Shown here piece by piece: positions 26,453 through 61,699 of a stretch of DNA of 64,000 bases. The stretch comes from Salinisphaeraceae bacterium (GTDB lineage Bacteria; Pseudomonadota; Gammaproteobacteria; Nevskiales; Salinisphaeraceae). Numbering within the stretch: the first letter of the stretch is position 1; each line of letters starts with the position of its first letter. The stretch spans positions 520,781 through 584,780 of the forward strand of contig OZ244134.1 of the NCBI GenBank assembly GCA_965216055.1, in the 5' to 3' direction. Position numbers and translations under genes: made by a program. The notes below the pieces were generated by a model that saw only the letters and a list, made by a program, of their open reading frames with translations, did no database searches and was not told the DNA's origin.

Positions 26453-26519
26453 AATACCGTTGAGCCGGCCAGCCGGCCGCAACGCCGCCTTCGGTGAAAT
26501 CCAACCACCGCACCCAGCG

Positions 26520-32482: not shown

Positions 32483-34399
32483 CTAGAAGTATGCCAGCAG
32501 GGTCAGACGGGCGCGGACCAGATCCTGCCGGGCCGTGTCCTCCGCGGTTACCCGGGCCCGCAGTCCGAGGCCGTCGGCCAGCGACCACTGCTGGGTCAGC
32601 GACGCCCAGTGCCGGTGGCCCGAATTACCGGCCACATGGTCGAGCACGCCGACTTCCGCGCGCAGCCGCCAGCCGTGGCGCAGCGTCGCCAGCACCCCGG
32701 CACTGGCGCCGGCGCCCAGGGCATAGTCGGCCGCGTAGCCATGGTTGCCATCCAGGCTGCCCAGGCCGAAGACGTAGCCGGTAACGCGATCGGCCAGCGA
32801 CCAGGCCAGGCCCGGCCCGCCTTCCATGAATGCCCCGAGATGGCCATCCGGATCGGCCGGCGCGCTGACCGGGCGCTGCCGCAGGCCAGCCGCAAGCTGC
32901 CAGGACCAGGGGTCGAACAGTGCATCGCGCGGACGCAGCGAAACAATATCCAGCAGCCCGAGACGGTCGATCTCGATCCGGTCGCGGCGGGTATCCAGCC
33001 GCAGGTCCAGCGACAGGAACGCCAGCTGGGTCCCCTCGCTGTAGCCGCCGGGCGGATCCAGCAGGTCGTGATAGGCCACCCGACCCTGCAGACCGAGCGA
33101 CCAGTCCCCGTCCTCATTGACCACCGATACGCCGGCCCGGCGGCTCGCGTGGCCGGCGTGTGGCGCCACGGCGGGCGTCGCAGGCTCGGCCCGCCCGCTG
33201 TCGGCCTGCACCCGGCTGCGGGCGAGCAGGATGGCCTGCAGGCGGGCATCACCCGCGCCGGGCGGCAGCCGCCCGACCTGAATCCGGTAGTAGACATGAT
33301 CGTGGGCCAGTTCCAGTACCCGCGCACGGACGGACGGCGAAAGTGCGGCGATGGCCGCGGCATCCGGGTCGCGTTCCCCGCGAGACACCGCCAGCGCCAG
33401 CCGCCGGTTCGCCCGGGTCATTTGTCCGGCGGCCACCTGCAGCCGGTGGCCTAGCGCCGGGCGGAACGACGGCCTGCCCAGCAGGCCGGGCACCGAATCC
33501 ACGGCACGGATGGTGTCGGCGGGGATGGCGTACCAGCCGAAGTCGCGGCTCAGATCGAGCGATGGCCGCACCGCCTCCAGCAGGGTCAGCAGTTGATAGG
33601 CGCAGTTGCGGTTGAGAAAGAAGTACTCGAATTTGGCGCCGCGCAGCTCCCAAAGATGCGCCACCAGGCGGCGACGCTCGGCAGCGGTCAGGTCGAGCGA
33701 ATACGACCAGATGTCGCGGTTCTCGATCCAGGCGTAGTCCCGCACCTTCTCGTAGTAGGGAAACACCCCGAACTGCCCCGTATAGCCGCCCGTCAGGCCG
33801 CGCCAGGCAAAGCCCAGACCGGCATCCTCGCCGGTAATGGCGGCGAAATTCACGGCATGGGCCAGCAATTCCCCGTCCCGCTCGACATCCAGGCGCAGCA
33901 GGGTGTGCCCGAACAGCGACGCCGCGCTGCCGGTATACGCGGTGGGGAACACCAGGCTCACACCATCCGGGTCGAGCCGCGCCTGCCAGCGCTGAAGCTC
34001 GGCGCAGGCCGAGGCATCCGGCGGTGGCAGATCGAGCTGCTCGACCAGCCATGCCGTGCGCGCGGGGAACAGGCAGTGCGCCGGACGATCACGACCGGAC
34101 AGGCGACCGCCACCCGCCAGCGCGCGGCGCAAGGCGTCGAGTTCGGCCGCGGGATCGGTGCGACCCTCGGACGTCAGGAAGAAATCGTCACTGACCACGG
34201 CGCTGACCGCCTCACCAAAGGCGGTCGGGCGATAGTGCAACAGTGCCCGCCAGCCGCGGGACTCGGCCAGATCGCCGGTGGCAACATTCTCTGCCGCCGG
34301 CACCGGTCCGGACAATGCGGTCAGCAGCAACGCCAGCGGGCCGGCCAGCAGACGGCCGCGCATCCGGGCGTCAGTCAAAGAAATGGCGCATCGCCACAC
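32483..34399 (-). CDS. DUF4105 (Lnb N-terminal, papain/NlpC-like) domain protein, paralog 2
   Basis: WRALLHY, SLFGHTLLRL, YAWIENRDIWSY and RNCAYQL; C-terminal beta-rich region ending in AYF. Confidence 0.85.
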   Translation of the reverse strand: MWRCAISLTDARMRGRLLAGPLALLLTALSGPVPAAENVATGDLAESRGWRALLHYRPTAFGEAVSAVVSDDFFLTSEGRTDPAAELDALRRALAGGGRLSGRDRPAHCLFPARTAWLVEQLDLPPPDASACAELQRWQARLDPDGVSLVFPTAYTGSAASLFGHTLLRLDVERDGELLAHAVNFAAITGEDAGLGFAWRGLTGGYTGQFGVFPYYEKVRDYAWIENRDIWSYSLDLTAAERRRLVAHLWELRGAKFEYFFLNRNCAYQLLTLLEAVRPSLDLSRDFGWYAIPADTIRAVDSVPGLLGRPSFRPALGHRLQVAAGQMTRANRRLALAVSRGERDPDAAAIAALSPSVRARVLELAHDHVYYRIQVGRLPPGAGDARLQAILLARSRVQADSGRAEPATPAVAPHAGHASRRAGVSVVNEDGDWSLGLQGRVAYHDLLDPPGGYSEGTQLAFLSLDLRLDTRRDRIEIDRLGLLDIVSLRPRDALFDPWSWQLAAGLRQRPVSAPADPDGHLGAFMEGGPGLAWSLADRVTGYVFGLGSLDGNHGYAADYALGAGASAGVLATLRHGWRLRAEVGVLDHVAGNSGHRHWASLTQQWSLADGLGLRARVTAEDTARQDLVRARLTLLAYF

Positions 34400-36224
34400 G
34401 GCAACCCACCTCGTCGCCGCCGGACCAGTCGCGATAGTCGCAGCCCAGCCGGATGGCGTCCTGGGCCGTGACCGGCAGGTTCAGCGTGAGTTCGCTGCGA
34501 TGGCGTGCGAACCCGGCCTGGTACCACCGGCTGTTCTGCATCAGCCCCAGCTGCCAGCCGGGGCGCTGGTAGAGCGCGCCGAATTCGGGCCCGGCACCCA
34601 GCCGCACGGCGGGTTCGGCCCCGGACACCTGCTCGGCCCGGGCGGTGGCCAGCCCGTAGACCAGCCAGTTGCCCAACCGCCAGGTGGCGCCGGGCCCGCC
34701 CTGCAGGAACAGCGCCTGCCGCCGGTCGTTGGTGTCCCCGTCCGCGTCGGCGCGTACCCGCTCGAGCCCCCCGTGCACGAACCAGGACGTGGGCTTGACG
34801 AAGGCCCCGCGCGGGGCCAGCGAGCGGATATTGACCAGGTCCAGGCTTTCCAGCACCAGGCCCTCGGCCTCGTCCAGGCGCAGATTGATATCCAGCCCCT
34901 CGATGCCCGCACCACGCAGGAAGCCGGTCACCGGGTCGAGCACGTCGTGATAGGTCAGCCGGTAACCCGCTTCGACGAAATCGCTGCCGCCGCGCGAGCC
35001 CAGCCCGAATTGCGCCAGTTCGGTGCCGTGGCCGGTCTCCGGGGCCGCGGGTTCCGGCGGCTCGGGCGCCGGCGGTGCGGCATTGCGCTGTACCACCCGC
35101 AACAGGGCCAGGCTGTGGCGGGCCACGTCGTCGGTGCGGGCCTGATCGCGCGATTCCAGCCGCAGCGCCTGGTAGGCCACCCGGGCGATACGGTGACGGC
35201 GATCCGGCGGATGGCTCTGAAAGGCCGGCGTCTCGGCGGCGGCCGGATCGTCGACCAGCTGCCGGGCCAGCGCCAGTTCCGGGTTGCTCAGGCTGGCGGC
35301 GGCGAATTCCAGCTCGTTGGCCTTGGACGGCCGGTAGCGGCGTTCGGTGACCAGACCGGCGCGGTAGAGCGTCCGCACGGTGTTGACCGGCAGTTCGGCG
35401 AACCGGAAATCCTCGATCAGCGGCGCCCGCGGCCGGGCCACCTTGATCAGCTCCAGCAGGCGGAAGGAGCAGTTCTCGTCGAAGAAGAAATAGTCGAAAT
35501 TGATGTTGCGCAGTTCCCACAGATGCCGCACCAGCCAGTCCAGCTCGTCGGCGTCGAGATTCAGCGCGTATTCCCAGATGTCCCGGTTTTCCAGATGGGC
35601 ATAGTCGCGAATCTTCTCCACGTAGGCGGTGAGCGAGAAATGGCCCGGATAGCCGCCGCCCAGCCCGCGCCAGATATAGAACAGCGAGTTCTCGTTCGGG
35701 TTCACCCGCGCGCCGAAATTGATCGCGCGTGACAGCCAGGTGGAGTCGGGGTCGGGTTCCGGGTCCAGCCGCAGCAGCGTATGCCCGAACATGGAGGACG
35801 GGCTGTTCAGATAGGCGGCGGGAAATGCCAGCACCAGCTGGCCGGTGGGCATCTTCTCGCGCCACTCGGGGTATTCCTCGCAGTGGTCGAATACGCCGTC
35901 GCGCGGCCAGTCGAGGCGTTCGGCGAGGAAGCGGTAGCGGGCCGGAAAGCGGCAGATGGTAGCGGCATCGGGCTGGCTCAGGGCGGCGTGGCTGGCTACC
36001 AGTTCCGCTCGTGGGTCGCGCTTGCCGGATGCGGCCAGGAAGAAATCCGGATCGTCGACATAGCTGGCGCCCACGTCCCGCAGGGTGGCGCCGGGATTCA
36101 GGTGCACCAGCGCCTGCCAGCGGTCCGACGCCGCCCAGGCCGTGAAATCGGCATCGGTCGGGGCCGCCGCATGCGCGATGGCAGCCGCGGCGGACAGGCA
36201 GAGAATCAGGGCGGCGCGAATCAA
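34371..36224 (-). CDS. DUF4105 (Lnb N-terminal, papain/NlpC-like) domain protein, paralog 1
   Basis: SSMFGHTLLRL, YAHLENRDIWEY and ENCSFRL; C-terminal beta-rich region. Confidence 0.85.
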   Translation of the reverse strand: MIRAALILCLSAAAAIAHAAAPTDADFTAWAASDRWQALVHLNPGATLRDVGASYVDDPDFFLAASGKRDPRAELVASHAALSQPDAATICRFPARYRFLAERLDWPRDGVFDHCEEYPEWREKMPTGQLVLAFPAAYLNSPSSMFGHTLLRLDPEPDPDSTWLSRAINFGARVNPNENSLFYIWRGLGGGYPGHFSLTAYVEKIRDYAHLENRDIWEYALNLDADELDWLVRHLWELRNINFDYFFFDENCSFRLLELIKVARPRAPLIEDFRFAELPVNTVRTLYRAGLVTERRYRPSKANELEFAAASLSNPELALARQLVDDPAAAETPAFQSHPPDRRHRIARVAYQALRLESRDQARTDDVARHSLALLRVVQRNAAPPAPEPPEPAAPETGHGTELAQFGLGSRGGSDFVEAGYRLTYHDVLDPVTGFLRGAGIEGLDINLRLDEAEGLVLESLDLVNIRSLAPRGAFVKPTSWFVHGGLERVRADADGDTNDRRQALFLQGGPGATWRLGNWLVYGLATARAEQVSGAEPAVRLGAGPEFGALYQRPGWQLGLMQNSRWYQAGFARHRSELTLNLPVTAQDAIRLGCDYRDWSGGDEVGCRVAMRHFFD

Positions 36225-45721: not shown

Positions 45722-46195
45722 ATGCACATAGCCCTCTACCAACCCGAAATCCCGCCCAACACCGGCAATGTCATCCGCCTCTGCGCCAATCTCGGCGCTA
45801 CCCTGCACCTGATCGAACCACTCGGGTTCGAACTGGATGACGCCCGCCTGCGCCGGGCCGGCCTGGACTATCGGGAGCTTGCGTGCCTGCAGACCTGGCC
45901 GGATCTGGACAGTCTTCGCCTCGCCCTGCCCGGCAACCGGCTGCTGGCCTGCTCCACCCGCGGCCGGCAGCGCTACGATCAGGTTCGGTATGGGCCGGAG
46001 GATCTCCTCCTGTTCGGGCCCGAAACCCGGGGGCTGCCGGATACGCTGCTGTCGACCCTGCCACCGGCGCAGGTGCTGCGCATTCCGATGCGGCCCGGCA
46101 ATCGCAGTCTGAATCTGTCGAACGCGGTGTCGGTGATCGCCTTCGAGGCCTGGCGGCAGGCCGATTTCGACGGTGCGGGTCTGACCCCGGATTGA
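45722..46195 (+). CDS. trmL: tRNA (cytidine(34)-2'-O)-methyltransferase TrmL
   Basis: IALYQPEIPPNTGN, LRRAGLDY, FGPETRGL and RSLNLSNAV. Confidence 0.95.
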   Translation: MHIALYQPEIPPNTGNVIRLCANLGATLHLIEPLGFELDDARLRRAGLDYRELACLQTWPDLDSLRLALPGNRLLACSTRGRQRYDQVRYGPEDLLLFGPETRGLPDTLLSTLPPAQVLRIPMRPGNRSLNLSNAVSVIAFEAWRQADFDGAGLTPD

Positions 46196-46213
46196 TTGCA
46201 TTATCATCCTTCC

Positions 46214-46849
46214 ATGAGCGCAACACCGCAGACAAGTATCCGGGTATTGCTGGTCGACGACCACGCAGTGGTGCGGGCCGGCTACGGCCGGTTGCTCAAG
46301 AGCGCGCCGGACATCCTGGTCGCCGGCGAGACCGATACCGGCGAATCGGCCTACCAGCTGGTCAGTCAGAGCCACTTCGACGTGGTGGTGATGGACCTGT
46401 CGCTGCCGGGCATGAGCGGCATCGAGGCCTGTTCGCGCATCCGCAAGCGCCGCCCCGACAGCCGGGTGCTGGTGTTTTCGGTGCACGAGGAAGAGATCTT
46501 CGTGAAGCGGGCACTACAGGCCGGGGCGGATGGTTACCTCACCAAACGCGCAGTGGCCGAGGTGCTGGTGGACGCGGTGCGCGAGGTTGCGGCCGGCCGG
46601 CGCTATCTCGACCCCAACCTCGCCATGGCCGGCGCAGGCGTCGATCCGCTGGCCTGCCTGTCGCGGCGGGAGTTCGAGATATTCCGGCTGCTGGCCGAGG
46701 GCCATGCGGTGCCGGACATCGCCAACGCCCTGTTTCTGAGCCCGAAGACCGTGTCCAACCACGCCAGCCGCATCCGCACCAAACTGGATGCTGCCTCGGC
46801 GGCGGATCTGACCCGGCTGGCGATCCGCCGCGGCGTGATCGCCGCCTGA
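46214..46849 (+). CDS. NarL/LuxR-family response regulator (MxcE/PedR2/ExaE-like)
   Basis: LVDDH, VMDLSLPG, YLTK and LSRREFEIFRLLAEG...LSPKTVSNH. Confidence 0.9.
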   Translation: MSATPQTSIRVLLVDDHAVVRAGYGRLLKSAPDILVAGETDTGESAYQLVSQSHFDVVVMDLSLPGMSGIEACSRIRKRRPDSRVLVFSVHEEEIFVKRALQAGADGYLTKRAVAEVLVDAVREVAAGRRYLDPNLAMAGAGVDPLACLSRREFEIFRLLAEGHAVPDIANALFLSPKTVSNHASRIRTKLDAASAADLTRLAIRRGVIAA

Positions 46850-46852
46850 CCG

Positions 46853-48217
46853 GTGGCTGCCGGCCGCCACGGACCGCGCCGATCACCCCGGCTGGGTCTG
46901 CGGGCACGGTTGATGCTGTTCATCACCCTGCTGCTGGCAATGATCCTGCTGGCCGCCACGGCCCTGGTGATCCAGAACGCGCGCATCGCCGTCAGCGAGG
47001 AAACCGAAGCCACCGTGTCGCTGGCGGCGGCCCTGCTGGGCCGCACCCTGCCCCGGCATACCAACAGCAATGATCTGCTGCGCCAGTTCACGCCCGGGGA
47101 TCAGCTGCGCCACCTGTGTCTGCGGCTGATCCTGCCGCGCACCCCGGCCCCGACCTGCGCCGATACCATCCCGCCCGGCACACCGGCCTGGTTCGCCGCA
47201 CTGACCCGCCCGGAACAGGCCGGCGAAACCGTGCTCGATATCGAGGGCCAGCCCGGGCGCATCCTGATTCATGCCGACCCGGCCGACGAGATCGCCGAAG
47301 CCTGGCGGGATGTGCGCGGCCTGCTGGCGCTGATCCTGTTGTTCTACGCGGTTTCGCTGGCCGCGGTGTTCCGGTCGCTGGGCCACATCACCCGGCCGGT
47401 ACACAGCATCAGCGCCGCGCTGGCCGGGGTCGAACACGGCGAGTTCGAGCGCCGCCTGCCGGCCTTCGACATGCCGGAGTTCGACCGTCTCGCCGCCCGT
47501 TTCAACCTGATGGTGGCCACGCTGGAACGCACGCGCGACGAGAACCAGCGGCTGCACCGCCACTCCCTGCGCATCCAGGAAACCGAGCGCCAGCGCCTGG
47601 CCCGCGAGCTGCATGACGAACTCGGCCAGAGCCTGACCGCCATCCGCGCGGATGTGGGCGGCATTCTCGCCCGCGAGGACAGCCTCCCGGCCGATGTGGC
47701 GGAATCGGCCCGGGCGATCAGCGAGGTAGCCGGCCGCATCTATGATCAGGCCCGCAGCATGATGCGCCGGTTGCGCCCGCCCGGGCTCGACGAACTGGGT
47801 CTGGCGCCAGCGCTGGAGGAAACCGTGGCCGGCTGGCAGCGACAGAATCCGGATGTCGCGTATCACCTCACGCCGGCCAGCGACCTGTCCGCCCTGGATC
47901 CGGAGATCGCCATCCACGTATTCCGCATCGTGCAGGAGGCCCTGACCAATGCCCACCGGCACGCCTCACCCCGAACCATTCGTATCCGGCTGGCGGGCGA
48001 GGAAGACCAGGTAACCGCCACCATCGAGGACGACGGTAACGGCTTCGACCCGGCGCGCATGTCCACCGGGGTGGGCATTTCCGGCATGCGCGAGCGTGCC
48101 CAGCTGCTGGGCGGGCAGGTGCAGATCACCAGCCGCCCGGGGCGCGGTACCCGGGTTCACGCCAGCCTGCCACGGACCCCGCCGAAAAATCGGGAAGTAT
48201 TCCCATTGAGCGATTAG
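46853..48217 (+). CDS. Sensor histidine kinase with MoxY/LapD-like periplasmic region, HAMP, HisKA_3 and HATPase (MxcQ/PedS2-like)
   Basis: LRARL + TM + ARIAVSEETEATV N-terminus, second TM, HAMP, LARELHDELGQSLTAI, QEALTNAHRHA, DDGNGF and GVGISGMRER. Confidence 0.85.
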   Translation: MAAGRHGPRRSPRLGLRARLMLFITLLLAMILLAATALVIQNARIAVSEETEATVSLAAALLGRTLPRHTNSNDLLRQFTPGDQLRHLCLRLILPRTPAPTCADTIPPGTPAWFAALTRPEQAGETVLDIEGQPGRILIHADPADEIAEAWRDVRGLLALILLFYAVSLAAVFRSLGHITRPVHSISAALAGVEHGEFERRLPAFDMPEFDRLAARFNLMVATLERTRDENQRLHRHSLRIQETERQRLARELHDELGQSLTAIRADVGGILAREDSLPADVAESARAISEVAGRIYDQARSMMRRLRPPGLDELGLAPALEETVAGWQRQNPDVAYHLTPASDLSALDPEIAIHVFRIVQEALTNAHRHASPRTIRIRLAGEEDQVTATIEDDGNGFDPARMSTGVGISGMRERAQLLGGQVQITSRPGRGTRVHASLPRTPPKNREVFPLSD

Positions 48218-48253
48218 CGGCCCCGATCGAGTATGACGTTTCACGCCATACTC
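48192..48253. promoter_or_regulatory. Candidate operator palindromes upstream of the TonB-dependent receptor
   Basis: GGGAA-gta-TTCCC (48192-48204) and GAGTATGACGT-ttc-ACGCCATACTC (48229-48253, one mismatch). Confidence 0.35.
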
Positions 48254-48279
48254 ATAAATCATGAAGGGGAGACATCGGG

Positions 48280-50649
48280 ATGCCAAACGCCACACGGAGG
48301 CTGGCACTCGCATCGGCAATGATTGCCGTGAGTGTCGGGGCGCAAGCGCAGAACGACGAGCAACGCCTGGAACCGGTCGACGTCATCAGCACCACGCCGT
48401 TCGAGGGCAGCGAAGTCGACGCCAACCGTTACCCGGCCAACGTGCAGTCCAGCACAGCCGAGGACATCGAACGCACCGACCCGGTCAACATGGTCGAGTT
48501 CCTGAACACCGAACTGGGCAGCGTCCACATCAATGACGCCGTGAACAACCCGTTCCAGCCCGACCTCAAGTACCGGGGCTACGTCGCCTCGCCACTGCTG
48601 GGTCTGCCCCAGGGCATTTCCGTCTACCAGGATGGCGTTCGCGTGAACGAACCCTTCGGCGACACCGTCAATTTCGATCTGATTCCCCAGGCGGCGATCG
48701 CCGACATCGACCTGCTGCCCGGCTCCAATCCGCTGTTCGGGCTGAATACCCTGGGCGGGGCACTCAACATCAAGACCAAGACCGGCTTTTCCCACCCGGG
48801 TCTGCAGGCCGAGGCCTACGGCGGCGACTTCGGGCGCTACGGCGGTCACGTCTCGCTCGGCGGCAACAGTGGCGACCTGGGCTGGCTGTTCCTCGTCCAG
48901 GGCATGGAAGAGGACGGCTGGCGTGACTTCTCCAGTTCGGAAGTCCTGCAGCTGTTCTCCAAGTTCAGCCACATAGGCGCGAACGGGGAGACCCATTTTT
49001 CGGTAACCGCCGCGGACAACACGCTGCGCGGTAACGGCGCGGTACCCCGGCGGCTGGCCGAGGAACGCGGCCGCGACCAGATATTCACCTTCCCGGACGA
49101 AACGTCACCAGAAATGGTAATGCTCAACCTGCGCGGCGTGCGCGACCTCGGCGAGCGGTTATCGCTGGCCTGGGGCGGCTATTATCGGAAAAGCGACGTC
49201 GACACGTTCAACGGCGACGGCAGCGAATTCGAGGAATGCTCCGAATTTTTCGGCCCGAACGACCCCAACGCCGACAATCTCTGCGAAGAACCGGAGGAAC
49301 CCGGCGAGATGGCCGAAGTGGTCGAGCAGCCCAATGGCGATCCGATCCCCGCCAATGACACCACCGAGGGGGGCACCCAGAACACGTCCAGCACCGAACA
49401 GGATGGCTGGGGCGTCAACCTGCAATTGCAGTCGCCGGGCCTGATCAGCGGTGAACTGACTACCGGCCTGACCTACGACGCCGGTGACAGCGACTTCGCT
49501 TCGCAGCAGGAAGTTGCCCGGCTGACCGCCCAGCGCGGCACCGTGGGCAGCGGTTTCTTCGTGGGCGAGTCCTTCACCCGGGTCAACGTGGACAACAGCA
49601 ATATCGGCGCCTTCTTCCTGCACCGCGCCCCGCTGACGCCGGACCTCGAATGGACCCTGGGCGGACGCTTCAACCGCACCGAGATCACGCTCAACGACCA
49701 GACGCCGGCGTTTGCCACCGAACCCGGCAACAGCCTGGACGGCGACCATCATTTCTCCCGCCTGAACATGACCACCGGGCTGGCCTGGGAAATGTCGCGC
49801 CAGCTGACCTTCTTCGGCAGCGTGGGTCAGTCCTCGCGGGCACCCTCTCCGCTGGAGCTGACCTGCGCCAATCCCGATGCCCCGTGCCGGCTGCCCAACG
49901 GATTCGTGGATGATCCCCCGCTGGCGCAGGTGGTGGCCACCACCATCGAGGTCGGCGCCCGCGGCGGCACCCGCAACCTGGCCTGGCGTACCGCGGCATT
50001 CCACGCCGTCAACGAGGACGACATCATCTTCATCTCGGCCGGCAACCGCTTCGAGGGCTTCTTCGACAACGTCGGTGACACCCGCCGGCAGGGCGTGGAA
50101 CTGGGCATGGAATGGCGGGTGATGCCCACAGTGCGGCTGAGTGCGGACTACACCTACCTCAACGCGGAATTCCGCGACAGCTTCCGCGTGAACTCGCCCA
50201 ACCACCCCAACCGCGAACCCGATCCGGCGAATCCGGGCGAGACCCGCGCCGCCGACAGTGCCCAGCAGGTCAATTCGGGCGACCGGCTGCCGCTGGTGCC
50301 CGAGCATATCTTCAAGCTGGGTGCCGACTGGGAGGCAAGCGATCTCGTGCGTCTCGGCGTCGACGTGATCGGCAACAGCGACCAGATCTTCCGCGGCGAC
50401 GAATCCAATACCGACAGCGAAACCATCGACGGCTTCGCCATCGTCAACCTGCGCGGGGAGATTTCGGTGACCAGCGCGGTGTCCCTGTTCGCCCGGGTGA
50501 ACAACGTGTTCGACACCGACTACGAGACCTTCGGGGTTTACGGCGAATCGGACGAGGTCCTGGCCGGGCCGCAGTTCGAGGACGCGTTCCGCTTCATCGG
50601 TCCCGGTGCGCCGCGCGGCATCTGGGGCGGTATCCGGGTGGCGTTGTAA
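48280..50649 (+). CDS. TonB-dependent receptor, LutH-like subfamily (candidate lanthanide/lanthanophore uptake)
   Basis: Signal peptide, plug motif NNPFQPDLKYRGYVASPLLGLPQGISVYQDGVRVNEPFGDTVNFDLIP...GSNPLFGLNTLGGA, and C-terminal PGAPRGIWGGIRVAL. Confidence 0.9.
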   Translation: MPNATRRLALASAMIAVSVGAQAQNDEQRLEPVDVISTTPFEGSEVDANRYPANVQSSTAEDIERTDPVNMVEFLNTELGSVHINDAVNNPFQPDLKYRGYVASPLLGLPQGISVYQDGVRVNEPFGDTVNFDLIPQAAIADIDLLPGSNPLFGLNTLGGALNIKTKTGFSHPGLQAEAYGGDFGRYGGHVSLGGNSGDLGWLFLVQGMEEDGWRDFSSSEVLQLFSKFSHIGANGETHFSVTAADNTLRGNGAVPRRLAEERGRDQIFTFPDETSPEMVMLNLRGVRDLGERLSLAWGGYYRKSDVDTFNGDGSEFEECSEFFGPNDPNADNLCEEPEEPGEMAEVVEQPNGDPIPANDTTEGGTQNTSSTEQDGWGVNLQLQSPGLISGELTTGLTYDAGDSDFASQQEVARLTAQRGTVGSGFFVGESFTRVNVDNSNIGAFFLHRAPLTPDLEWTLGGRFNRTEITLNDQTPAFATEPGNSLDGDHHFSRLNMTTGLAWEMSRQLTFFGSVGQSSRAPSPLELTCANPDAPCRLPNGFVDDPPLAQVVATTIEVGARGGTRNLAWRTAAFHAVNEDDIIFISAGNRFEGFFDNVGDTRRQGVELGMEWRVMPTVRLSADYTYLNAEFRDSFRVNSPNHPNREPDPANPGETRAADSAQQVNSGDRLPLVPEHIFKLGADWEASDLVRLGVDVIGNSDQIFRGDESNTDSETIDGFAIVNLRGEISVTSAVSLFARVNNVFDTDYETFGVYGESDEVLAGPQFEDAFRFIGPGAPRGIWGGIRVAL

Positions 50650-50735
50650 TCACGTTTGGTATCTACATGTCCTGTATAGAAGCGCCCGGGCTCCGGTCCG
50701 GGCGCCCGTTAACTCACCACGACAGGGATCGACCG

Positions 50736-51278
50736 ATGCGCAAGGCATTCACGACGACCGGCCTGTTGGCACTGTCACTGACAGCACCGGCGGCGATCGC
50801 CGGACACGGCAATCACGGCAGGGTTTCGCTGGAGGATTGCCTGACCGCCGCCAGCGCCGTCAAACAGGGCGACTTCATCAAGGCGGAGTATCTCAACGTC
50901 ACCACGGGCGGCGACCCCACCTACGAGATCGAGGTACGCGATGATCAGGGCACCGAGTGGGAGCTGATGTGCAGCGCCCGCACCGGTGATATCTACGAGC
51001 TGGAAACCGAGGCCGATGGCGCCGACGATCCGGCGTTTGCCGACGCGGCCAAGATCAGCGAGAAAGAGGCCCGCAAGATCGCCACCGATCGCTTTCCCGG
51101 CACCATCGAGGAAGTGGAGTACGAGATCGAGGCCAGTGGCGATCCCAGTTACGAAATCGACGTGGTCGACGAAGGCGGCACCGAGTTCAAACTGGAAGTC
51201 GATGCGGTCAGCGGCGATATCATCGAGGTGTCCGTGGAACACTGGGAGATCGGCGAGGAGCCGGCCGAAAAGCCCTGA
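50736..51278 (+). CDS. Periplasmic, very acidic double-PepSY protein (lanpepsy/LanP-like)
   Basis: 22-aa signal peptide, two PepSY repeats and about 42 D/E in 158 mature residues; start ATG at 50736. Confidence 0.85.
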   Translation: MRKAFTTTGLLALSLTAPAAIAGHGNHGRVSLEDCLTAASAVKQGDFIKAEYLNVTTGGDPTYEIEVRDDQGTEWELMCSARTGDIYELETEADGADDPAFADAAKISEKEARKIATDRFPGTIEEVEYEIEASGDPSYEIDVVDEGGTEFKLEVDAVSGDIIEVSVEHWEIGEEPAEKP

Positions 51279-51301
51279 CCCATCCCGTTACGTCGATGAC
51301 G

Positions 51302-51329
51302 AAAAGAACCCCGCTCCGGCGGGGTTTTT
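51302..51329. terminator. Rho-independent (probably bidirectional) terminator
   Basis: AAAAG-AACCCCGC-tccg-GCGGGGTT-TTT between the convergent PepSY gene and plsB. Confidence 0.85.
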
Positions 51330-51340
51330 CATGTCCGGCG

Positions 51341-58143: not shown

Positions 58144-59514
58144 ATGCGCAAAGCCAAGTATTATTCCGTTACAGTCAAGCTCCCTTCTGGAAAGCATGCG
58201 GCTGTGTTTGGCCACCTCGGCGAGCCCTGTCCCACGCTGACAGAATTCGCCCGAATCAGTCAGCGCCACGTCACTCTAAGCTCCAGCAAGGTCTATCTCG
58301 CACACCTTCTCCGCTTCGCTAACTGGCTAGTAGAGTCAGAGAACCTCGACGTCGGCGCCTTAAGACCCTTACCAAAACAGCGTCTTCGACAATTAGTTGA
58401 AAATTTCTTGCGGGAAAGCTTTAGCTGCCGCATCCGGGATGGCCTTGGTGGCCGCAAGCTCGTGGTTTCGAGGGCATCCAACCAATCTGGCGTATCCACC
58501 GCTCTCGCCGCATTAAAACTGTTTTTCCGCTTGGGCTATAAGCAGGCGTGGGTTAGGTCAGACAACCCCCTCGGCCTAGTCACCATCGGGAACGATCAAA
58601 AAACAGCGATCTCCGACTACGAATGCATCCCTTCTTCAAAGGGAAGCATGCCCCAAAAGAGTGGCGTGGTGCCGCCACCGGTGAAACGACACACACTCAC
58701 TGCCTCGTACTTGGTAGTTCAGGGCAAAGACTGGGTTCCGCAGATACTCGATGATGATGACTTTCCGTCTCGGATTTACTCTGCGGGCGAATCCTATGGG
58801 TGGAACTTGCGGGACCGACTGGTTACCCGTTTGCTGTTCGAAAGCGGCGCCCGAGTATCGGAAATTTGCTCACTCACGATAAGTGACTGGTCAATATCCG
58901 AATATCGGACTGAAGCCAGTTGCAAGAACAAAGGCTCTGGCAATGTTCGGGATAAGTGGATCCGCTTTAGCCATCAGACAGAGCGACTAATGACTAAATA
59001 CATAAAGCAGGAACGCGCCTCGCTCTGCAATCAGGATGGCAGCCACCACTATAAGTTTTTAAAAACACTACCCTCTGAAGTTGCAAGAACAACACCGATA
59101 TTTATAACTCGGCAAAAATCCGGATTAACGGCGGATACATATCGATCAACAACATGGTATCCCCTATGCCGCCATGCCGGCATCAAAGCACGAGTGCATC
59201 AAATCCGACATTGGTACGTTACTCGAGCAATCAATTTAATCTATCGAAGCAAGCTGAGCGAAACCGAAAGAGAAAGAAGGATTCAGCATTTAATTAGCTA
59301 TATGGGCTGGCGTTCCGGCAAGAAAACCATGGAAGCGTATGAGCATTTTTTCAATGCAAGAGAGCATCATGAGTTGCAGGATGAATTGCATCGTGTGTTG
59401 AACGCCGTCCACTCAAGACCTGTTGAAGCACAAATTGGGAAGCCATCAAATACGACTGCGGGACTTCATTCCGACACTGAATGGGATTATCTAATGAAGC
59501 TAGCGGGTGAATAG
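58144..59514 (+). CDS. Tyrosine recombinase, TnpA-like
   Basis: FESGARVSEICSL, HQIRHWYVT and YMGWRS...MEAY. Confidence 0.88.
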   Translation: MRKAKYYSVTVKLPSGKHAAVFGHLGEPCPTLTEFARISQRHVTLSSSKVYLAHLLRFANWLVESENLDVGALRPLPKQRLRQLVENFLRESFSCRIRDGLGGRKLVVSRASNQSGVSTALAALKLFFRLGYKQAWVRSDNPLGLVTIGNDQKTAISDYECIPSSKGSMPQKSGVVPPPVKRHTLTASYLVVQGKDWVPQILDDDDFPSRIYSAGESYGWNLRDRLVTRLLFESGARVSEICSLTISDWSISEYRTEASCKNKGSGNVRDKWIRFSHQTERLMTKYIKQERASLCNQDGSHHYKFLKTLPSEVARTTPIFITRQKSGLTADTYRSTTWYPLCRHAGIKARVHQIRHWYVTRAINLIYRSKLSETERERRIQHLISYMGWRSGKKTMEAYEHFFNAREHHELQDELHRVLNAVHSRPVEAQIGKPSNTTAGLHSDTEWDYLMKLAGE

Positions 59515-61699
59515 ACCCATGACAACACCCTTCACCCTTAGCGCGAAAAGAAATAATTACGACCTTGCCGACATGAACGGGCTATCTCCTTATATCTTTG
59601 AAGCGCCACAAACCGCTTTCGATTTAAGTCGCAGTAAGAAGTTACCGGGCCTTCACGCGAAGTCGATCACTTACTTGATCAAGCACATCAACGAGCAGCC
59701 CTGGGCGGACGCCTTGACGCTATGGGCACTGATTGTTTCCGCTCAGAACGTAGCACCCAGTAGTACCTACTCCACCCTTGGGCTGCTCAGCAAGCGTTTC
59801 CGGCTTTTTTTTGGTCACTCCCGATACTTGCCGCGACGGCTGACGTCTATGACAGATTTTCAGCCGGACGAGGTGCTTCCCGCATACGCGAGCGGATTGA
59901 TCGGGCGGGACTCCGCCCGAACACGAACCGACTTTCTTTGGCGTTATCAAGCCGCCGCAACGAAAATGCACCGCTGGCATCAAGCTTTACCCTTCCACCT
60001 GAAACCCAATTACAGGCCGCTTTTACTACCTCTCGCCAACCTAACCTCTACCAAAATTTATTTAACTCAAAATAATCTAGACGCACATACAAGGCAGAAG
60101 CGCCGAGAGCACGTCGACGTTGTAATGCCTACATACTCAGAATTGAGGGCAGCAGCGTACCAGCGAACCAATGAGTTACAGCGCCTGCTGGGCATCTATC
60201 GCGACAACATTCATCTAGCAGAGAAATCTTTTTATAATTTCCCACCTTCTGTCGCATACGAAGAGCATGGCCGAACTATTCAATTACGCTTTTGGACGTG
60301 GCCGGCTTTCGTAATAAGACATAGCAATAAGTTCTCGGAAAAGATTCTTGATTTAGCTTGGGCGGCAGCTGCGGACAACGAATATGGGCAGCCGTTCGTC
60401 GAGGTATTACGTGACGAAGATCAGGCCGAGCCACCATTCTGGTTTTACGAACTCGCCGAAGCGGGATTGATCGGAGCTTCCAGAAACCCCAATTCAAATG
60501 CGGCCCGCAACCTTCTAAGAGATTGGGGCTATCCGGAGACGGCATTCACCACCACTCATAAGGGCCTCCTTTGCTTGAACAAGCCGACGCTACCCCAAGG
60601 AATAGCTGCCTCACGGCTAGCCAAGGCTGCCGACGGAGTATTGCTTGACCCGGAGAGTATGTATTTGAGCGCGCTCTTTGGGTTGTTAGCGCTAAATGTT
60701 GTCACGACCACAGGCGCGCGAATGTCGGAAGTTTTACAGGTAGCATTGGATCGAGACAGTCTTGTTCGGCTCAACTTTCGGGCGCCTACTGGCAAAAAAG
60801 GCACTACGAAAAAAGAGCGGTACATTCTACGTGTAACGCCCAAAGGCGCTAAGTCAGACGAGAAAGCCGATTACTTCATAGGGGACGATACAAAAAAATT
60901 GCTATACCGCGTTGCGAGAGCTTTAGCAGAAAATTATGAACTCCCAGCAGGGCAACCGTTGCCCGTAGTCCCTTTCTCAACATATTCCAGTCGATTTTCA
61001 GATTTTCTTCCAAGGCGCTATGTTTTCCAGCTACACGGCAGGCACTTGTCGCCGAGCACACTTCAATCTTGCTTGCGATTTATAACTCATGGATGCAGCG
61101 GCCGAGCCGTAGACGGCAGCGCAGTCAACATAACCGCCCACCTGCTTCGCCACGTTTTCGCGACTCATGCTGTACAGGTAGCTAAAATGCCTGTAGATGT
61201 CGTCGCGGAGCTACTCCACCAAAAAAATGTGGATGTGACCAAGTACTATTCAGGGCCCACGCGCTCGATGGTCGCGCAATCTGCCGACGAGTACTTGTCC
61301 AGTGTCGCCCTTGATCTGGATGTCGAAGAGAAGCTAACTCGCTCACCCGCTGAGCTTCAGGAATTGTATCAAGAAGCCCAGGGTAAAGCAGGCACCCTCA
61401 GCGAGGTCATCGGGGGAGTCTGTGTGAGCCACGGCTACTGCCAAACAAAGTTCGAGTGCATTGGTTGCGCAGGCAAAGTCCCCGACCCCACGAAGCGCTC
61501 GCAAGTCATTAGAAAACTGGACTGGGCAAAGGGTGAGGTCGGCTATGCTACCAACGAAGGCCTATTGCCGGAGGCAGCACGGATGCGACGCCTAGTAGAA
61601 GACTGCAAGCTAGAATTACGAGAGATGGATCTGATGGAGGAATGCGAATCGGATGAGAAAAATGAGCAACCTTCCATTAGCATCGATTATCGAACATGA
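59507..61699 (+). CDS. Large tyrosine recombinase, TnpB(Tn554)-like
   Basis: TTGARMSEV, AHLLRHVFAT, LLHQKNVDVTKYY and a C-terminal C..H..C...F.CIGC motif. Confidence 0.88.
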   Translation: MNRPMTTPFTLSAKRNNYDLADMNGLSPYIFEAPQTAFDLSRSKKLPGLHAKSITYLIKHINEQPWADALTLWALIVSAQNVAPSSTYSTLGLLSKRFRLFFGHSRYLPRRLTSMTDFQPDEVLPAYASGLIGRDSARTRTDFLWRYQAAATKMHRWHQALPFHLKPNYRPLLLPLANLTSTKIYLTQNNLDAHTRQKRREHVDVVMPTYSELRAAAYQRTNELQRLLGIYRDNIHLAEKSFYNFPPSVAYEEHGRTIQLRFWTWPAFVIRHSNKFSEKILDLAWAAAADNEYGQPFVEVLRDEDQAEPPFWFYELAEAGLIGASRNPNSNAARNLLRDWGYPETAFTTTHKGLLCLNKPTLPQGIAASRLAKAADGVLLDPESMYLSALFGLLALNVVTTTGARMSEVLQVALDRDSLVRLNFRAPTGKKGTTKKERYILRVTPKGAKSDEKADYFIGDDTKKLLYRVARALAENYELPAGQPLPVVPFSTYSSRFSDFLPRRYVFQLHGRHLSPSTLQSCLRFITHGCSGRAVDGSAVNITAHLLRHVFATHAVQVAKMPVDVVAELLHQKNVDVTKYYSGPTRSMVAQSADEYLSSVALDLDVEEKLTRSPAELQELYQEAQGKAGTLSEVIGGVCVSHGYCQTKFECIGCAGKVPDPTKRSQVIRKLDWAKGEVGYATNEGLLPEAARMRRLVEDCKLELREMDLMEECESDEKNEQPSISIDYRT

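What the first reader, a model, noticed from the sequence alone, without database searches (positions are those of the whole stretch)
46214..51278. Self-contained candidate lanthanide sensing and capture cassette (two-component system + LutH-like receptor + lanpepsy) with no adjacent dehydrogenase
Seen: four co-oriented genes ending at a strong terminator (51302-51329): a LuxR-type regulator, a HAMP/HisKA_3 kinase, a TonB-dependent receptor and an acidic double-PepSY protein. Known: MxcQE of Methylorubrum and PedS2/PedR2 of Pseudomonas putida are a kinase/LuxR pair of this architecture that run the lanthanide switch. LutH and LanA are TonB receptors linked to lanthanide uptake or response, and LanP (lanpepsy) of Methylobacillus flagellatus is a roughly 19-kDa periplasmic two-PepSY lanthanide binder. 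The receptor plug motif (NPFQPD...ASPLLG.PQG..VYQ.GVR.NE.FGDTVN.DLIP) is the one I recall from LutH-type receptors. Inference: sensor, regulator, outer-membrane importer and periplasmic chelator form one module, sitting between trmL and plsB. No xoxF/exaF/pedH, pqq or lut ABC genes lie in the window. This could be an undescribed minimal rare-earth sensing/scavenging unit in a probable non-methylotroph.
Basis: partly seen in the sequence, partly recalled or inferred. Interest (0 to 1): 0.82.

Follow-up and report, generated by a model that had tools for sequence, protein, structure and literature searches.

The report
Lanthanide sensing and uptake operon
A marine Salinisphaeraceae bacterium carries a four-gene operon whose regulator, sensor kinase, outer-membrane receptor and periplasmic metal-binding protein are each true homologues of proteins that handle rare-earth metals in methane- and methanol-eating bacteria, which points to a compact rare-earth sensing and uptake unit outside the methylotrophs.

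Summary
The four co-oriented genes and the terminator are real. Each protein passed a test that could have refuted the lanthanide (Ln) reading.

- **PepSY protein:** it matches the lanpepsy crystal structures (E 8e-37) and keeps all bridging Ln ligands.
- **Receptor:** 33% identical over its full length to the LutH orthologue (380 bits; an unrelated TonB receptor scores 65).
- **Kinase:** a full-length homologue of MxaY/MoxY, the methanotroph Ln-switch kinase. It is not the PedS2 type.
- **Regulator:** a co-orthologue of MxaB.

Synteny supports the link. MxaY/MxaB-type pairs sit beside lanP-like genes in 11 of 38 loci. LutH-family receptors sit beside such pairs in alpha-, beta- and gamma-proteobacteria. 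Ln-type (D-x-D) PQQ dehydrogenases lie next to the cassette in relatives.

A conserved palindrome, GGGAR-WWW-TTCCC, lies about 80 bp upstream of the receptor gene. It recurs before receptor, Ln-dehydrogenase and mxaF genes elsewhere, so it is a likely operator.

The window has no dehydrogenase, but its chromosome encodes pqqC. lanP is an indel, absent from a close relative.

Function is inferred, not shown. I rate this a new variant of a known kind.

The parts
46214..46849 (+). Response regulator (REC + LuxR/GerE HTH). It is a co-orthologue of the methanotroph MxaB and of the regulator encoded downstream of mxaY.
   Evidence: Pfam Response_reg 100.8 bits and GerE 59.1 bits. It is 41-44% identical to both methanotroph paralogues, which are 47% identical to each other, and 50-52% identical to the regulators of the Arenicellales and Thiodiazotropha cassettes. 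It starts 18 bp after the trmL stop codon.
46853..48217 (+). Sensor histidine kinase of the MxaY/MoxY family: TM1, a LapD/MoxY-type periplasmic domain, TM2, HAMP, HisKA_3 and HATPase_c. The start may instead be the ATG at 46913.
   Evidence: Pfam. The full-length alignment with kinases next to lanP-like genes includes the sensor motifs RHL, PxWF and A(D/N)PxDEIxExW. One of those kinases is ESS73613.1, 'MoxY' of Methyloglobulus morosus, cited as 51% identical to M. buryatense MxaY. LapD_MoxY_N is found in 10 of 11 family members; the window's own score is 22 bits against a cutoff of 25.
48190..48208 (+). Conserved operator-like element TCGGGAAGTATTCCCATTG, with the palindrome GGGAA-GTA-TTCCC at 48192-48204. 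It lies 76 bp upstream of the receptor start codon and inside the last codons of the kinase ORF.
   Evidence: It is invariant in the window, L001, L144-L147, S. aquimarina and the Arenicellales locus, once per locus, and absent from the other 222 loci. A relaxed palindrome lies upstream of the LutH-family receptor in 16 of 16 loci with an adjacent HK/RR of this family, and in 0 of 8 others.
48280..50649 (+). TonB-dependent receptor of the LutH family. It has a signal peptide, a TonB box, a plug, a 22-strand barrel, an acidic Cys-bridged loop at residues 304-363, and a second Cys pair at C529/C536.
   Evidence: Pfam Plug + TonB_dep_Rec_b-barrel. No NCBIfam equivalog is reached: PqqU scores 90 against a cutoff of 1200, and the siderophore subfamily 121 against 223. 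It is 33% identical over 832 aligned positions to the LutH orthologue beside lanM (E 5e-124, 380 bits). An unrelated receptor scores 65 bits and family members 344-646 bits.
50682..50705 (+). GC-rich hairpin (GCGCCCGG-N8-CCGGGCGC) without a T-run, in the 86-bp spacer between the receptor gene and lanP.
   Evidence: Read directly from the sequence. It lies inside the segment that is missing from the relative that lacks lanP. Its function was not tested.
50736..51278 (+). Lanpepsy (LanP) homologue: a secreted, very acidic double-PepSY protein.
   Evidence: It matches PDB 9VY3 and seven sister entries at E 8e-37 over residues 24-175. Those entries are M. flagellatus lanpepsy, apo and with La, Nd, Sm, Gd, Tb, Ho or Yb bound. 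Bridging ligands D54(E), E68, E106, E108, E118 and E132, plus E104, are D/E in 38 of 38 homologues including the window. The AlphaFold model has pLDDT 87.7 and an alpha+4beta / alpha+4beta layout.
51307..51331 (+). Intrinsic terminator hairpin with a T-run that ends the operon. It is bidirectional with the convergent plsB.
   Evidence: Terminator scan. It is part of the lanP-containing indel relative to L144.

Best explanation
This is a lanthanide acquisition-and-sensing operon that works entirely across the outer membrane and in the periplasm.

1. The LutH-family TonB-dependent receptor brings lanthanide, free or chelated, into the periplasm.
2. The secreted lanpepsy homologue keeps the full acidic channel that holds five stacked Ln3+ ions in the crystal structure. 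It binds the metal there as a buffer or chaperone.
3. The MxaY-family kinase reads periplasmic lanthanide status through its LapD/MoxY-type sensor domain. It may do so directly or through a periplasmic partner.
4. The kinase sets the phosphorylation state of the MxaB-family LuxR-type regulator.
5. The regulator binds the GGGAA-N3-TTCCC palindrome about 80 bp upstream of the receptor gene and controls receptor-lanP transcription. It probably also acts in trans on PQQ-dependent alcohol dehydrogenase genes elsewhere on the 3.1-Mb chromosome, which also carries pqq genes.

**Shown here:** gene order, homology of all four proteins, ligand conservation, conserved synteny, and the conserved palindrome with its distribution.

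**Inferred:** the metal specificity of this receptor and binder, what the kinase senses, that the palindrome is the regulator's site, and the sign of regulation.
For: **LanP homology and ligands**
- E 8e-37 to PDB 9VY3.
- those entries are lanpepsy with bound lanthanides, and the bridging ligands are named.
- all bridging ligands and about 17 acidic positions are conserved in 38 of 38 homologues.
- LanP binds 3-4 Ln3+ selectively over Ca, Fe and Zn.

**Receptor**
- 33% identity, 380 bits, to the LutH orthologue beside lanM.
- an unrelated receptor scores 65 bits.
- LutH is needed for La uptake and for the lanthanide switch.

**Kinase and regulator**
- full-length homology to MoxY/MxaY-type kinases.
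- MxaY controls the lanthanide switch.
- the regulator is a co-orthologue of MxaB and of the regulator downstream of mxaY.

**Synteny**
- of 38 LanP-like loci, 11 have the kinase, 15 the regulator, 8 the receptor and 13 a PQQ dehydrogenase.
- 12 of the 23 loci with a kinase and regulator of this family carry a LutH-family receptor next door, against 0 of about 55 loci with unrelated HisKA_3 kinases.
- the cassette lies next to pqqBCDE in S. aquimarina, and next to exbBD in Thiodiazotropha.
- neighbouring dehydrogenases carry the Ln-type WD[YF]DG motif.

**Operator**.

**Genome context**
- PqqC and the window's LanP are recorded on a contig of the same length, 3,111,834 bp.
- pqqBCDE is in the sister MAG and in the runs that hold the window.
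- a Salinisphaera MAG with Ln-type PQQ dehydrogenases has been published.
- there is no Fur box.
Against: - No experiment exists for this organism or for any of these four proteins.
- Deleting lanP in M. flagellatus gave no growth or switch phenotype. lanP is also absent from a close relative with an otherwise identical locus. The binder is therefore dispensable.
- The receptor is only 33% identical to LutH and lies in a sister clade; alphaproteobacterial receptors are 40% identical. LutH's true substrate is itself undefined.
- The window's kinase scores just under the Pfam LapD_MoxY_N cutoff.
- The residue aligned with the conserved Glu at position 147 of the methanotroph kinases is Arg here. 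Whether that position is the E147 of M. buryatense MxaY, where E147G is constitutive, is unverified, because that sequence was not retrieved.
- No PQQ dehydrogenase was found in the window or within 10 kb of pqq in the sister genomes. A lanthanide enzyme in this genome is therefore not shown.
- The sign of regulation cannot be predicted. lutH is repressed by La in M. extorquens, while the receptor and LanP are induced by La in M. flagellatus.
- There is only an 18-bp gap between trmL and the regulator gene, so the promoter of the regulatory genes is unidentified.
Confidence: 0.7

Rival explanations
1. The cassette is a homeostasis or detoxification circuit rather than a nutritional scavenger. 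The kinase detects excess trivalent metal in the periplasm. The regulator then shuts the receptor and raises the binder, which sequesters the metal. The proteins are the same as in the main explanation but the physiological purpose differs.
For: LanP has micromolar affinity and many sites, which suits a buffer. Deleting lanP gives no growth phenotype. M. flagellatus grows more slowly with La and induces an efflux system. lutH is repressed by La. The window cassette has no inner-membrane importer.
Against: An energy-consuming importer co-transcribed with the buffer is hard to reconcile with pure detoxification. Relatives place the cassette beside pqq genes and Ln-type dehydrogenases, which implies use of the metal.
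Confidence: 0.13
2. The cassette handles a different metal or chelate, such as ferric siderophore, Ca2+, Al3+ or an actinide. The resemblance to lanthanide proteins would then reflect only shared ancestry of generic parts: a NarL-type two-component system, a TonB receptor and a PepSY metal binder such as UipA.
For: Sources annotate receptor homologues as iron receptors. The best NCBIfam match is the generic siderophore subfamily, though below its cutoff. PepSY proteins bind uranyl and Fe3+ in UipA. Methylolanthanin-type uptake also responds to iron. Metal specificity cannot be read from sequence.
Against: There is no Fur box, and no siderophore biosynthesis or ABC import genes nearby. LanP showed no binding of Fe2+, Fe3+ or Zn2+, and its ligand set is fully conserved here. 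The partners are consistently PQQ or Ln-type dehydrogenases and MxaY-type kinases.
Confidence: 0.12
3. The receptor imports PQQ, or a PQQ-metal complex, rather than lanthanide, because its nearest solved relatives are YncD and PqqU.
For: The only PDB sequence matches are YncD and the PQQ transporter (E about 1e-16, plug region only). The S. aquimarina cassette lies beside pqq genes.
Against: The PqqU equivalog scores 90 bits against a cutoff of 1200, and the LutH orthologue gives the same weak PqqU signal. The lineage makes its own PQQ. The match to LutH is six times stronger.
Confidence: 0.03

Closest known systems
Lanpepsy (LanP, Mfla_0908) of Methylobacillus flagellatus; PDB 9VY3-9VYA
   Same: It is a secreted protein of about 17-19 kDa with two PepSY domains. 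It is about 50% identical over the whole mature protein. All bridging Ln ligands, most channel carboxylates and the Cys pair are conserved. Both have a very low pI.
   Different: The host is a marine chemoorganotrophic Salinisphaeraceae bacterium, not a methylotroph. Hemmann et al. found close homologues only in methylotrophs. Here the gene is the last gene of an operon with a receptor and a two-component system. Some non-bridging acidic positions differ (E35, E37, E46, E56, E111). Binding has not been measured.
LutH (MexAM1_META1p1785) and the lut cluster of Methylorubrum extorquens
   Same: Both are TonB-dependent receptors of one discrete family, aligning over their full length with shared plug and barrel motifs including a Cys pair. 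LutH is needed for lanthanide entry into the periplasm.
   Different: Identity is 33%, in a sister clade. The window has no lutABCEFG ABC transporter and no lanmodulin next to the receptor. Instead it has a two-component system and LanP. The Methylorubrum lutH has no adjacent regulator and lacks the palindrome.
MxaY/MoxY kinase and MxaB regulator of Methylotuvimicrobium buryatense and other Methylococcales
   Same: The domain order is the same, including the LapD/MoxY periplasmic sensor, and the alignment is full-length (30-40% identity). A LuxR-type regulator is encoded beside the kinase. In methanotrophs these genes lie next to lanP-like genes.
   Different: In methanotrophs the pair sits by the Ca-type mxaF operon and governs the MxaF/XoxF switch. 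Here it sits by an uptake receptor. The residue aligned with position 147 of the methanotroph kinases is Arg. Gene order is RR-HK rather than HK-RR.
PedS2/PedR2 of Pseudomonas putida KT2440
   Same: It is a membrane kinase with HAMP and HisKA_3 plus a LuxR-type regulator that responds to lanthanides in a non-methylotroph.
   Different: The PedS2 periplasmic region is reported to differ from the LapD/MoxY domain, and PedS2 is only 25% identical to MxaY. P. putida has no LutH homologue. The ped system sits beside dehydrogenase genes.
UipA of Microbacterium (uranium/iron-binding double-PepSY protein)
   Same: It is an acidic two-PepSY metal binder.
   Different: UipA is membrane-anchored, forms a domain-swapped dimer with a concave sheet rather than a barrel, and binds uranyl and Fe3+. 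It is not a significant sequence match here; the only PDB sequence hit was lanpepsy.

Membership tests
Lanpepsy (LanP) | Small secreted protein made of two PepSY domains | tested here: met
   Pfam PepSY with two stretches, 81 bits. The signal peptide MRKAFTTTGLLALSLTAPAAIA was read from the sequence. The mature form is 158 aa and 17.2 kDa.
Lanpepsy (LanP) | Close full-length similarity to Mfla_0908 (Hemmann criterion: at least 85% coverage and E no higher than 1e-20) | tested here: met
   E 8e-37, with residues 24-175 aligned to 4-153 of the 153-residue crystallised chain. The chain was identified as lanpepsy.
Lanpepsy (LanP) | Carboxylate ligands of the stacked Ln sites (bridging D54, E68, E106, E108, E118, E132; also E104) | tested here: met
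   All are D/E in the window protein and in 38 of 38 homologues. The full list of 19 ligands was in a figure that is not held, so only the named ones were checked.
Lanpepsy (LanP) | Eight-stranded pseudo-symmetric beta-barrel with an acidic lumen | tested here: inconclusive
   The AlphaFold model is confident (pLDDT above 96 in the fold) with alpha+4beta twice. The fold library did not return the 9VY entries, so no superposition was obtained.
Lanpepsy (LanP) | Binds several Ln3+ ions selectively over Ca2+, and is induced by La | not testable with these tools
   This needs purified protein (dye competition, ICP-MS, ITC) and cultures.
LutH-type lanthanide TonB-dependent receptor | TonB-dependent receptor with full-length similarity to LutH well above that to other receptors | tested here: met
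   33% identity over 832 positions, 380 bits. An unrelated receptor scores 65 bits. The PDB best matches YncD/PqqU score 64 bits.
LutH-type lanthanide TonB-dependent receptor | Orthology to LutH (same clade in a phylogeny, or reciprocal best match) | tested here: inconclusive
   Alphaproteobacterial receptors linked to the same HK/RR family are closer to LutH (37-42%, 478-559 bits) than the window's receptor is.
LutH-type lanthanide TonB-dependent receptor | Embedded in a lut cluster (ABC transporter lutAEF, periplasmic lutBG, lanmodulin) | tested here: not met
   None of these is in the window. The Methylorubrum locus shows them.
LutH-type lanthanide TonB-dependent receptor | Required for lanthanide entry | not testable with these tools
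   This needs a knockout and ICP-MS.
MxaY/MoxY sensor kinase | LapD/MoxY periplasmic domain followed by HAMP, HisKA_3 and HATPase_c | tested here: met
   The window scores 22 bits against a cutoff of 25 for LapD_MoxY_N on its own, but 10 of 11 aligned family members match (best E 7.5e-11). The sensor region aligns in register with conserved motifs.
MxaY/MoxY sensor kinase | Homology to a named MxaY | tested here: met
   It is 33% identical over about 412 residues to ESS73613.1, MoxY of M. morosus, which is cited as 51% identical to the characterised MxaY. The M. buryatense sequence itself was not retrieved.
MxaY/MoxY sensor kinase | Conserved Glu corresponding to E147 of M. buryatense MxaY | tested here: inconclusive
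   Methanotroph homologues have W146-E147, while the window has W-R (L003 has W-K, L038 has W-S). The numbering of the M. buryatense protein is assumed, not verified.
PedS2/PedR2 and MxcQ/MxcE | Homologous periplasmic sensor domain, not merely the HAMP/HisKA_3/LuxR architecture | not tested
   No PedS2 or MxcQ sequence was available. [quoted passage not shown] The shared architecture is common to the whole NarL class.

The most novel reading that the evidence does not exclude
The novel reading has two linked parts.

1. LanP is not just a buffer but the periplasmic co-sensor of MxaY-type kinases. Their LapD-like sensor domain belongs to a family that in LapD works by binding a periplasmic protein. 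That domain would read Ln-loaded against empty LanP.
2. The GGGAR-WWW-TTCCC palindrome is the operator of the MxaB-family regulators. It would define a lanthanide regulon shared by alpha-, beta- and gamma-proteobacteria, covering lutH-type receptors, lanP, Ln-type PQQ dehydrogenases and mxaF.

This would also explain why the regulator encoded next to mxaY in M. buryatense is dispensable for the dehydrogenase switch: its targets would be the uptake and binding genes.
Probability: 0.3. Interest if true: 0.82.

Novelty: new variant of a known kind. Interest (0 to 1): 0.68.

Why it matters
Three open questions in lanthanide biology would become directly testable.

- **What lanpepsy is for.** Its deletion has no phenotype in M. 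flagellatus. Here it is wired to an uptake receptor and a lanthanide-type sensor, and across methanotrophs it sits next to mxaY.
- **How lutH-type receptors are regulated, and what MxaY/MxaB-type regulators bind.** The conserved palindrome gives a concrete site and a predicted regulon.
- **How far lanthanide use extends beyond methylotrophs in the sea.** The host belongs to a cultured marine genus group (Spectribacter/Salinisphaera) with PQQ genes.

The natural lanP-plus and lanP-minus relatives are a ready-made comparison. Practically, the family offers new LanP variants from halophiles for rare-earth separation, and a compact sensor-promoter pair for lanthanide biosensors.

Tried and rejected
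- **Fold search.** A PDB fold search with the LanP model returned only weak two-PepSY matches (TM no higher than 0.36). It did not return the 9VY entries that the sequence search found, so the library evidently lacks them. No structural superposition was possible.
- **Depth comparison.** Window and pqq contigs were at depths 7/14, 8/12 and 7/7 in three runs. The runs are communities, so co-occurrence is not proof.
- **Kinase genome scan.** It saturated on catalytic-core patterns. It did not retrieve the M. buryatense mxaY locus, so E147 and the lanP-mxaY adjacency in that model strain remain unchecked.
- **Dehydrogenase search.** No PQQ dehydrogenase was found in the window or within 10 kb of pqqC in the sister MAG and two Spectribacter genomes.
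- **RNA evidence.** It was too thin to show co-transcription. Only part of the receptor gene of a related strain was covered.
- **Rejected readings.** A Fur box and PqqU membership were both rejected.
- **Literature.** I found no description of lanP-mxaY linkage, of this cassette or of an MxaB-type operator. The searchable library excludes many subscription papers, including the LanA paper, so LanA was not compared.
- **First operator pattern.** It had the wrong spacer length and found nothing. It was corrected.


Full report
**Observation.** The window (66% G+C) holds four co-oriented genes on the + strand.

- A REC+GerE response regulator, 46214-46849.
- A HAMP+HisKA_3+HATPase kinase, 46853-48217.
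- A Plug+barrel TonB-dependent receptor, 48280-50649.
- A 180-residue double-PepSY protein, 50736-51278.

A hairpin with a T-run at 51307-51331 follows. The cassette starts 18 bp after the stop codon of trmL and is convergent with plsB. The mature PepSY protein is 17.2 kDa, pI 4.05, with 42 acidic residues. No PQQ dehydrogenase, pqq gene or lut-type ABC transporter lies in the 64 kb.

**The PepSY protein is a lanpepsy homologue.** Its only match among solved structures is a set of eight entries, 9VY3-9VYA (E 8e-37, about 50% identity over the whole mature protein). A preprint identifies these as M. flagellatus lanpepsy, apo and with seven different lanthanides. Five densely stacked sites sit in an acidic beta-barrel, bridged by D54, E68, E106, E108, E118 and E132.

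I aligned 38 homologues from reference genomes. All six bridging positions and E104 are D/E in every sequence, the window's included. About 17 acidic positions and a Cys pair are invariant or nearly so. An AlphaFold model built from 40 homologues is confident (pLDDT above 96 in the fold) and has the alpha+4beta / alpha+4beta layout.

The family is small. Only 70 clusters at 50% identity reach E no higher than 1e-30, out of 1.84 billion representatives. None of the 120 listed homologues is annotated as lanpepsy.

**The receptor belongs to the LutH family.** I retrieved lanmodulin loci using a recalled lanmodulin sequence, which was confirmed at 98% identity in Methylorubrum. From those loci I took the receptor immediately upstream of lanM, which is the position of lutH.

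The window's receptor aligns with it over 832 positions at 33% identity (E 5e-124, 380 bits). For calibration, an unrelated TonB receptor from one of the same loci scores 65 bits. The nearest solved structures (YncD, PqqU) score 64 bits. Other family members score 344-646 bits. No curated NCBIfam equivalog is reached, and the LutH orthologue gives the same weak profile pattern. Orthology in the strict sense is not established: alphaproteobacterial receptors are closer to LutH.

**The two-component system is MxaY/MxaB-type.** Kinases encoded next to lanP-like genes in Methylobacter, Methylomonas, Methylomarinum, Methyloprofundus and Methyloglobulus align with the window's kinase over their full length. 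The alignment includes the periplasmic domain, with invariant RHL, PxWF and A(D/N)PxDEIxExW motifs.

The Methyloglobulus morosus member is ESS73613.1, annotated as 'methanol utilization control sensor protein MoxY'. Chu et al. cite that protein as 51% identical to MxaY of M. buryatense, the kinase that controls the lanthanide switch. Pfam finds LapD_MoxY_N in 10 of 11 family members; the window's own score is 22 bits against a cutoff of 25.

The regulator is equally similar (41-44%) to the two methanotroph paralogues: the one downstream of mxaY and the one in the mxaB position.

**Synteny.** Of the 38 LanP-like loci, 11 have the kinase, 15 the regulator, 8 a LutH-family receptor and 13 a PQQ methanol/ethanol-family dehydrogenase within the fetched flanks. 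Twenty-three have at least one of these.

- **Full four-gene set.** It occurs in the window, a Salinisphaeraceae MAG (95-96% identity), S. aquimarina, an Arenicellales MAG and one further gammaproteobacterial MAG.
- **Non-methanotroph loci.** The neighbouring dehydrogenase has the lanthanide-type WD[YF]DG motif.
- **Methanotroph loci.** The neighbour is the Ca-type MxaF (WDYAG), with the layout lanP, mxaY, regulator, mxaD-like, beta-propeller, mxaB, mxaF.
- **Scan with the kinase family.** Twelve of the 23 loci with a kinase and regulator of this family have a LutH-family receptor next door. These are from Bradyrhizobium, Xanthobacteraceae, Burkholderiaceae, Paraburkholderia, Caballeronia and gammaproteobacteria. 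None of about 55 loci with unrelated HisKA_3 kinases does.
- **Other contexts.** In Ca. Thiodiazotropha the receptor follows a MoxY-type kinase and regulator and precedes exbB/exbD. In S. aquimarina the cassette abuts pqqB/C/D/E, an aldehyde dehydrogenase and a sigma-54 activator.

**A conserved operator-like site.** The element TCGGGA(A/G)NNNTTCCCATTG, with the palindrome at 48192-48204, lies 76 bp upstream of the receptor start codon. It is invariant in seven loci from the window's clade, S. aquimarina and Arenicellales, whose proteins are only 50-57% identical to the window's. It occurs nowhere else among 229 loci.

A relaxed GGGA-N4-5-TCCC palindrome lies within 300 bp upstream of the receptor in 16 of 16 loci where the receptor neighbours this HK/RR family. 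It is absent in 0 of 8 other cases, including the Methylorubrum lutH. The strict form occurs at 0.063 per kb in those loci against 0.0048 per kb elsewhere. Fourteen of the 16 'elsewhere' hits are again in LanP, MxaY or LutH loci. Only two hits fall in about 2 Mb of unrelated loci.

Additional copies have these positions:

- before Ln-type dehydrogenase genes (L075, L080, L038);
- flanking the regulator in a Bradyrhizobium locus, between a LutH-family receptor on one side and a quinohaemoprotein dehydrogenase followed by lanM on the other (L053);
- in the mxaB-mxaF divergent region (L028);
- before mxaD-like genes and before mxaB-like regulators.

I infer that this is the binding site of the MxaB-family regulators. 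I found no published operator for them.

**Organism and genome context.** The nearest genomes are a Salinisphaeraceae MAG and the cultured marine genus Spectribacter, which are aerobic chemoorganotrophs of about 3.3 Mb and 65.6% G+C with no reported methylotrophy.

The window's own LanP protein is recorded on a 3,111,834-bp contig. The sister MAG and both Spectribacter species carry pqqB-C-D and pqqE beside an aldehyde dehydrogenase and a sigma-54 activator. Runs that contain the window also contain that pqq locus.

The lineage therefore makes PQQ. I could not locate its quinoprotein dehydrogenase(s). A published survey reports a Salinisphaera MAG with Ln-type PQQ dehydrogenases and a putative lanthanophore cluster.

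**Natural variation.** A relative whose receptor is 87% identical has the same neighbourhood, from the OPT transporter to parB, including trmL-RR-HK-receptor-plsB. It has no lanP: about 150 bp of unrelated sequence replace window positions ~50650-51340. lanP with its terminator is therefore a recent gain or loss.

**Mechanism.** The receptor imports lanthanide into the periplasm, LanP binds it there, and the MxaY-type kinase reports periplasmic status to the regulator. The regulator acts at the palindrome to control receptor-lanP transcription, and probably dehydrogenase genes in trans.

The absence of an inner-membrane importer fits a periplasm-only circuit that serves periplasmic enzymes. 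The sign of regulation is open. lutH is repressed by La in M. extorquens, whereas the receptor and LanP are induced by La in M. flagellatus. Rival readings are homeostasis or detoxification, another metal, and PQQ uptake. They are weighed in their own sections. There is no Fur box.

**Novelty.** Each part has a known relative. What appears undescribed in the searchable literature is the following:

- their union in one operon;
- its presence in non-methylotrophic marine gammaproteobacteria;
- the recurrent lanP-mxaY linkage in methanotrophs;
- the linkage between LutH-family receptors and MxaY/MxaB-type systems in three proteobacterial classes;
- the shared palindrome.

I classify the finding as a new variant of a known kind. 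All functional statements are inferences from homology, conserved ligands, synteny and motif distribution.

Noticed in passing
window 48190-48208; also L001, L003, L061, L144-L147 and relaxed forms in L053, L063-L096: A conserved palindrome, GGGAR-WWW-TTCCC, lies upstream of LutH-family receptor genes and recurs before Ln-type PQQ dehydrogenase, mxaF, mxaD-like and mxaB-like genes in alpha-, beta- and gamma-proteobacteria. It is a candidate operator of MxaB-family regulators.
   Followed up: yes
window ~50650-51340 versus L144:12371-12519: The lanP-like gene plus its terminator is an indel. A relative with an 87%-identical receptor and an identical neighbourhood has about 150 bp of unrelated, locally repetitive sequence (GCCCCGGCATGCCCCGGCATGCC) in its place.
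   Followed up: yes
L018, L025, L027, L028, L032, L034 (Methylococcales loci): In methanotrophs lanP sits beside mxaY, followed by a regulator, an MxaD-like (Polyketide_cyc2) gene, a YNCE-type beta-propeller gene, then mxaB divergent from the Ca-type mxaF. I found no mention of this lanP-mxaY linkage in the lanpepsy or MxaY papers I read.
   Followed up: partly
window 48176-48217: The kinase ORF of the window's clade carries a C-terminal extension (…PKNREVFPLSD) that reads through the conserved palindrome. Kinases of other clades stop earlier, leaving the element intergenic. The last codons may be constrained by the DNA site rather than by the protein.
   Followed up: no
window 46193-46216: Only 18 bp separate the trmL stop codon from the regulator's ATG, and the same holds in L144. 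The regulatory genes must be co-transcribed with trmL or use a promoter inside it.
   Followed up: no
L061 (S. aquimarina) versus L150-L152 and the window: In S. aquimarina the cassette abuts an aldehyde dehydrogenase, a sigma-54 activator (MimR_N/GAF) and pqqBCDE. In the window's lineage that same block lies elsewhere, and the cassette sits between trmL and plsB. The cassette has therefore moved as a unit.
   Followed up: partly
L053:3614-10396 (Bradyrhizobium mercantei): The layout is LutH-family receptor (-), palindrome, LuxR-type regulator (+), palindrome, quinohaemoprotein PQQ dehydrogenase with a cytochrome c domain (+), then lanmodulin. This is a compact lanthanide locus in a rhizobium that carries the same motif.
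   Followed up: partly
window 48280-50649, protein residues 304-363: The receptor has a very acidic loop (19 D/E in 60 residues) bracketed by Cys320 and Cys335. The LutH orthologue has an acidic, two-Cys segment at the same place. It could be an extracellular metal-contact loop.
   Followed up: no
window 49679-50413: Contigs from two RNA-seq runs of another organism's transcriptome (X25, X27) cover part of the receptor gene at 95-97% identity and low depth. A related strain's receptor may be transcribed in a host-associated setting. DNA carry-over cannot be excluded.
   Followed up: partly
window 26382-28793: A single 803-residue ORF fuses HMG-CoA reductase with a GHMP (mevalonate-type) kinase. 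This suggests a mevalonate-pathway gene fusion in a gammaproteobacterium.
   Followed up: no
window 32483-36224: Two tandem paralogues with Lnb_N, DUF7843 and DUF7840 domains (637 and 616 aa) lie next to an OPT-family transporter and an M16 peptidase.
   Followed up: no
window 58144-61699; compare L144:19350-20720 and L145:10566-12229: Two tyrosine-recombinase genes follow parB, which looks like the edge of an integrated element. One relative has a single integrase there. Another instead has HvfC and MbnB/TglH/ChrH-family genes.
   Followed up: partly
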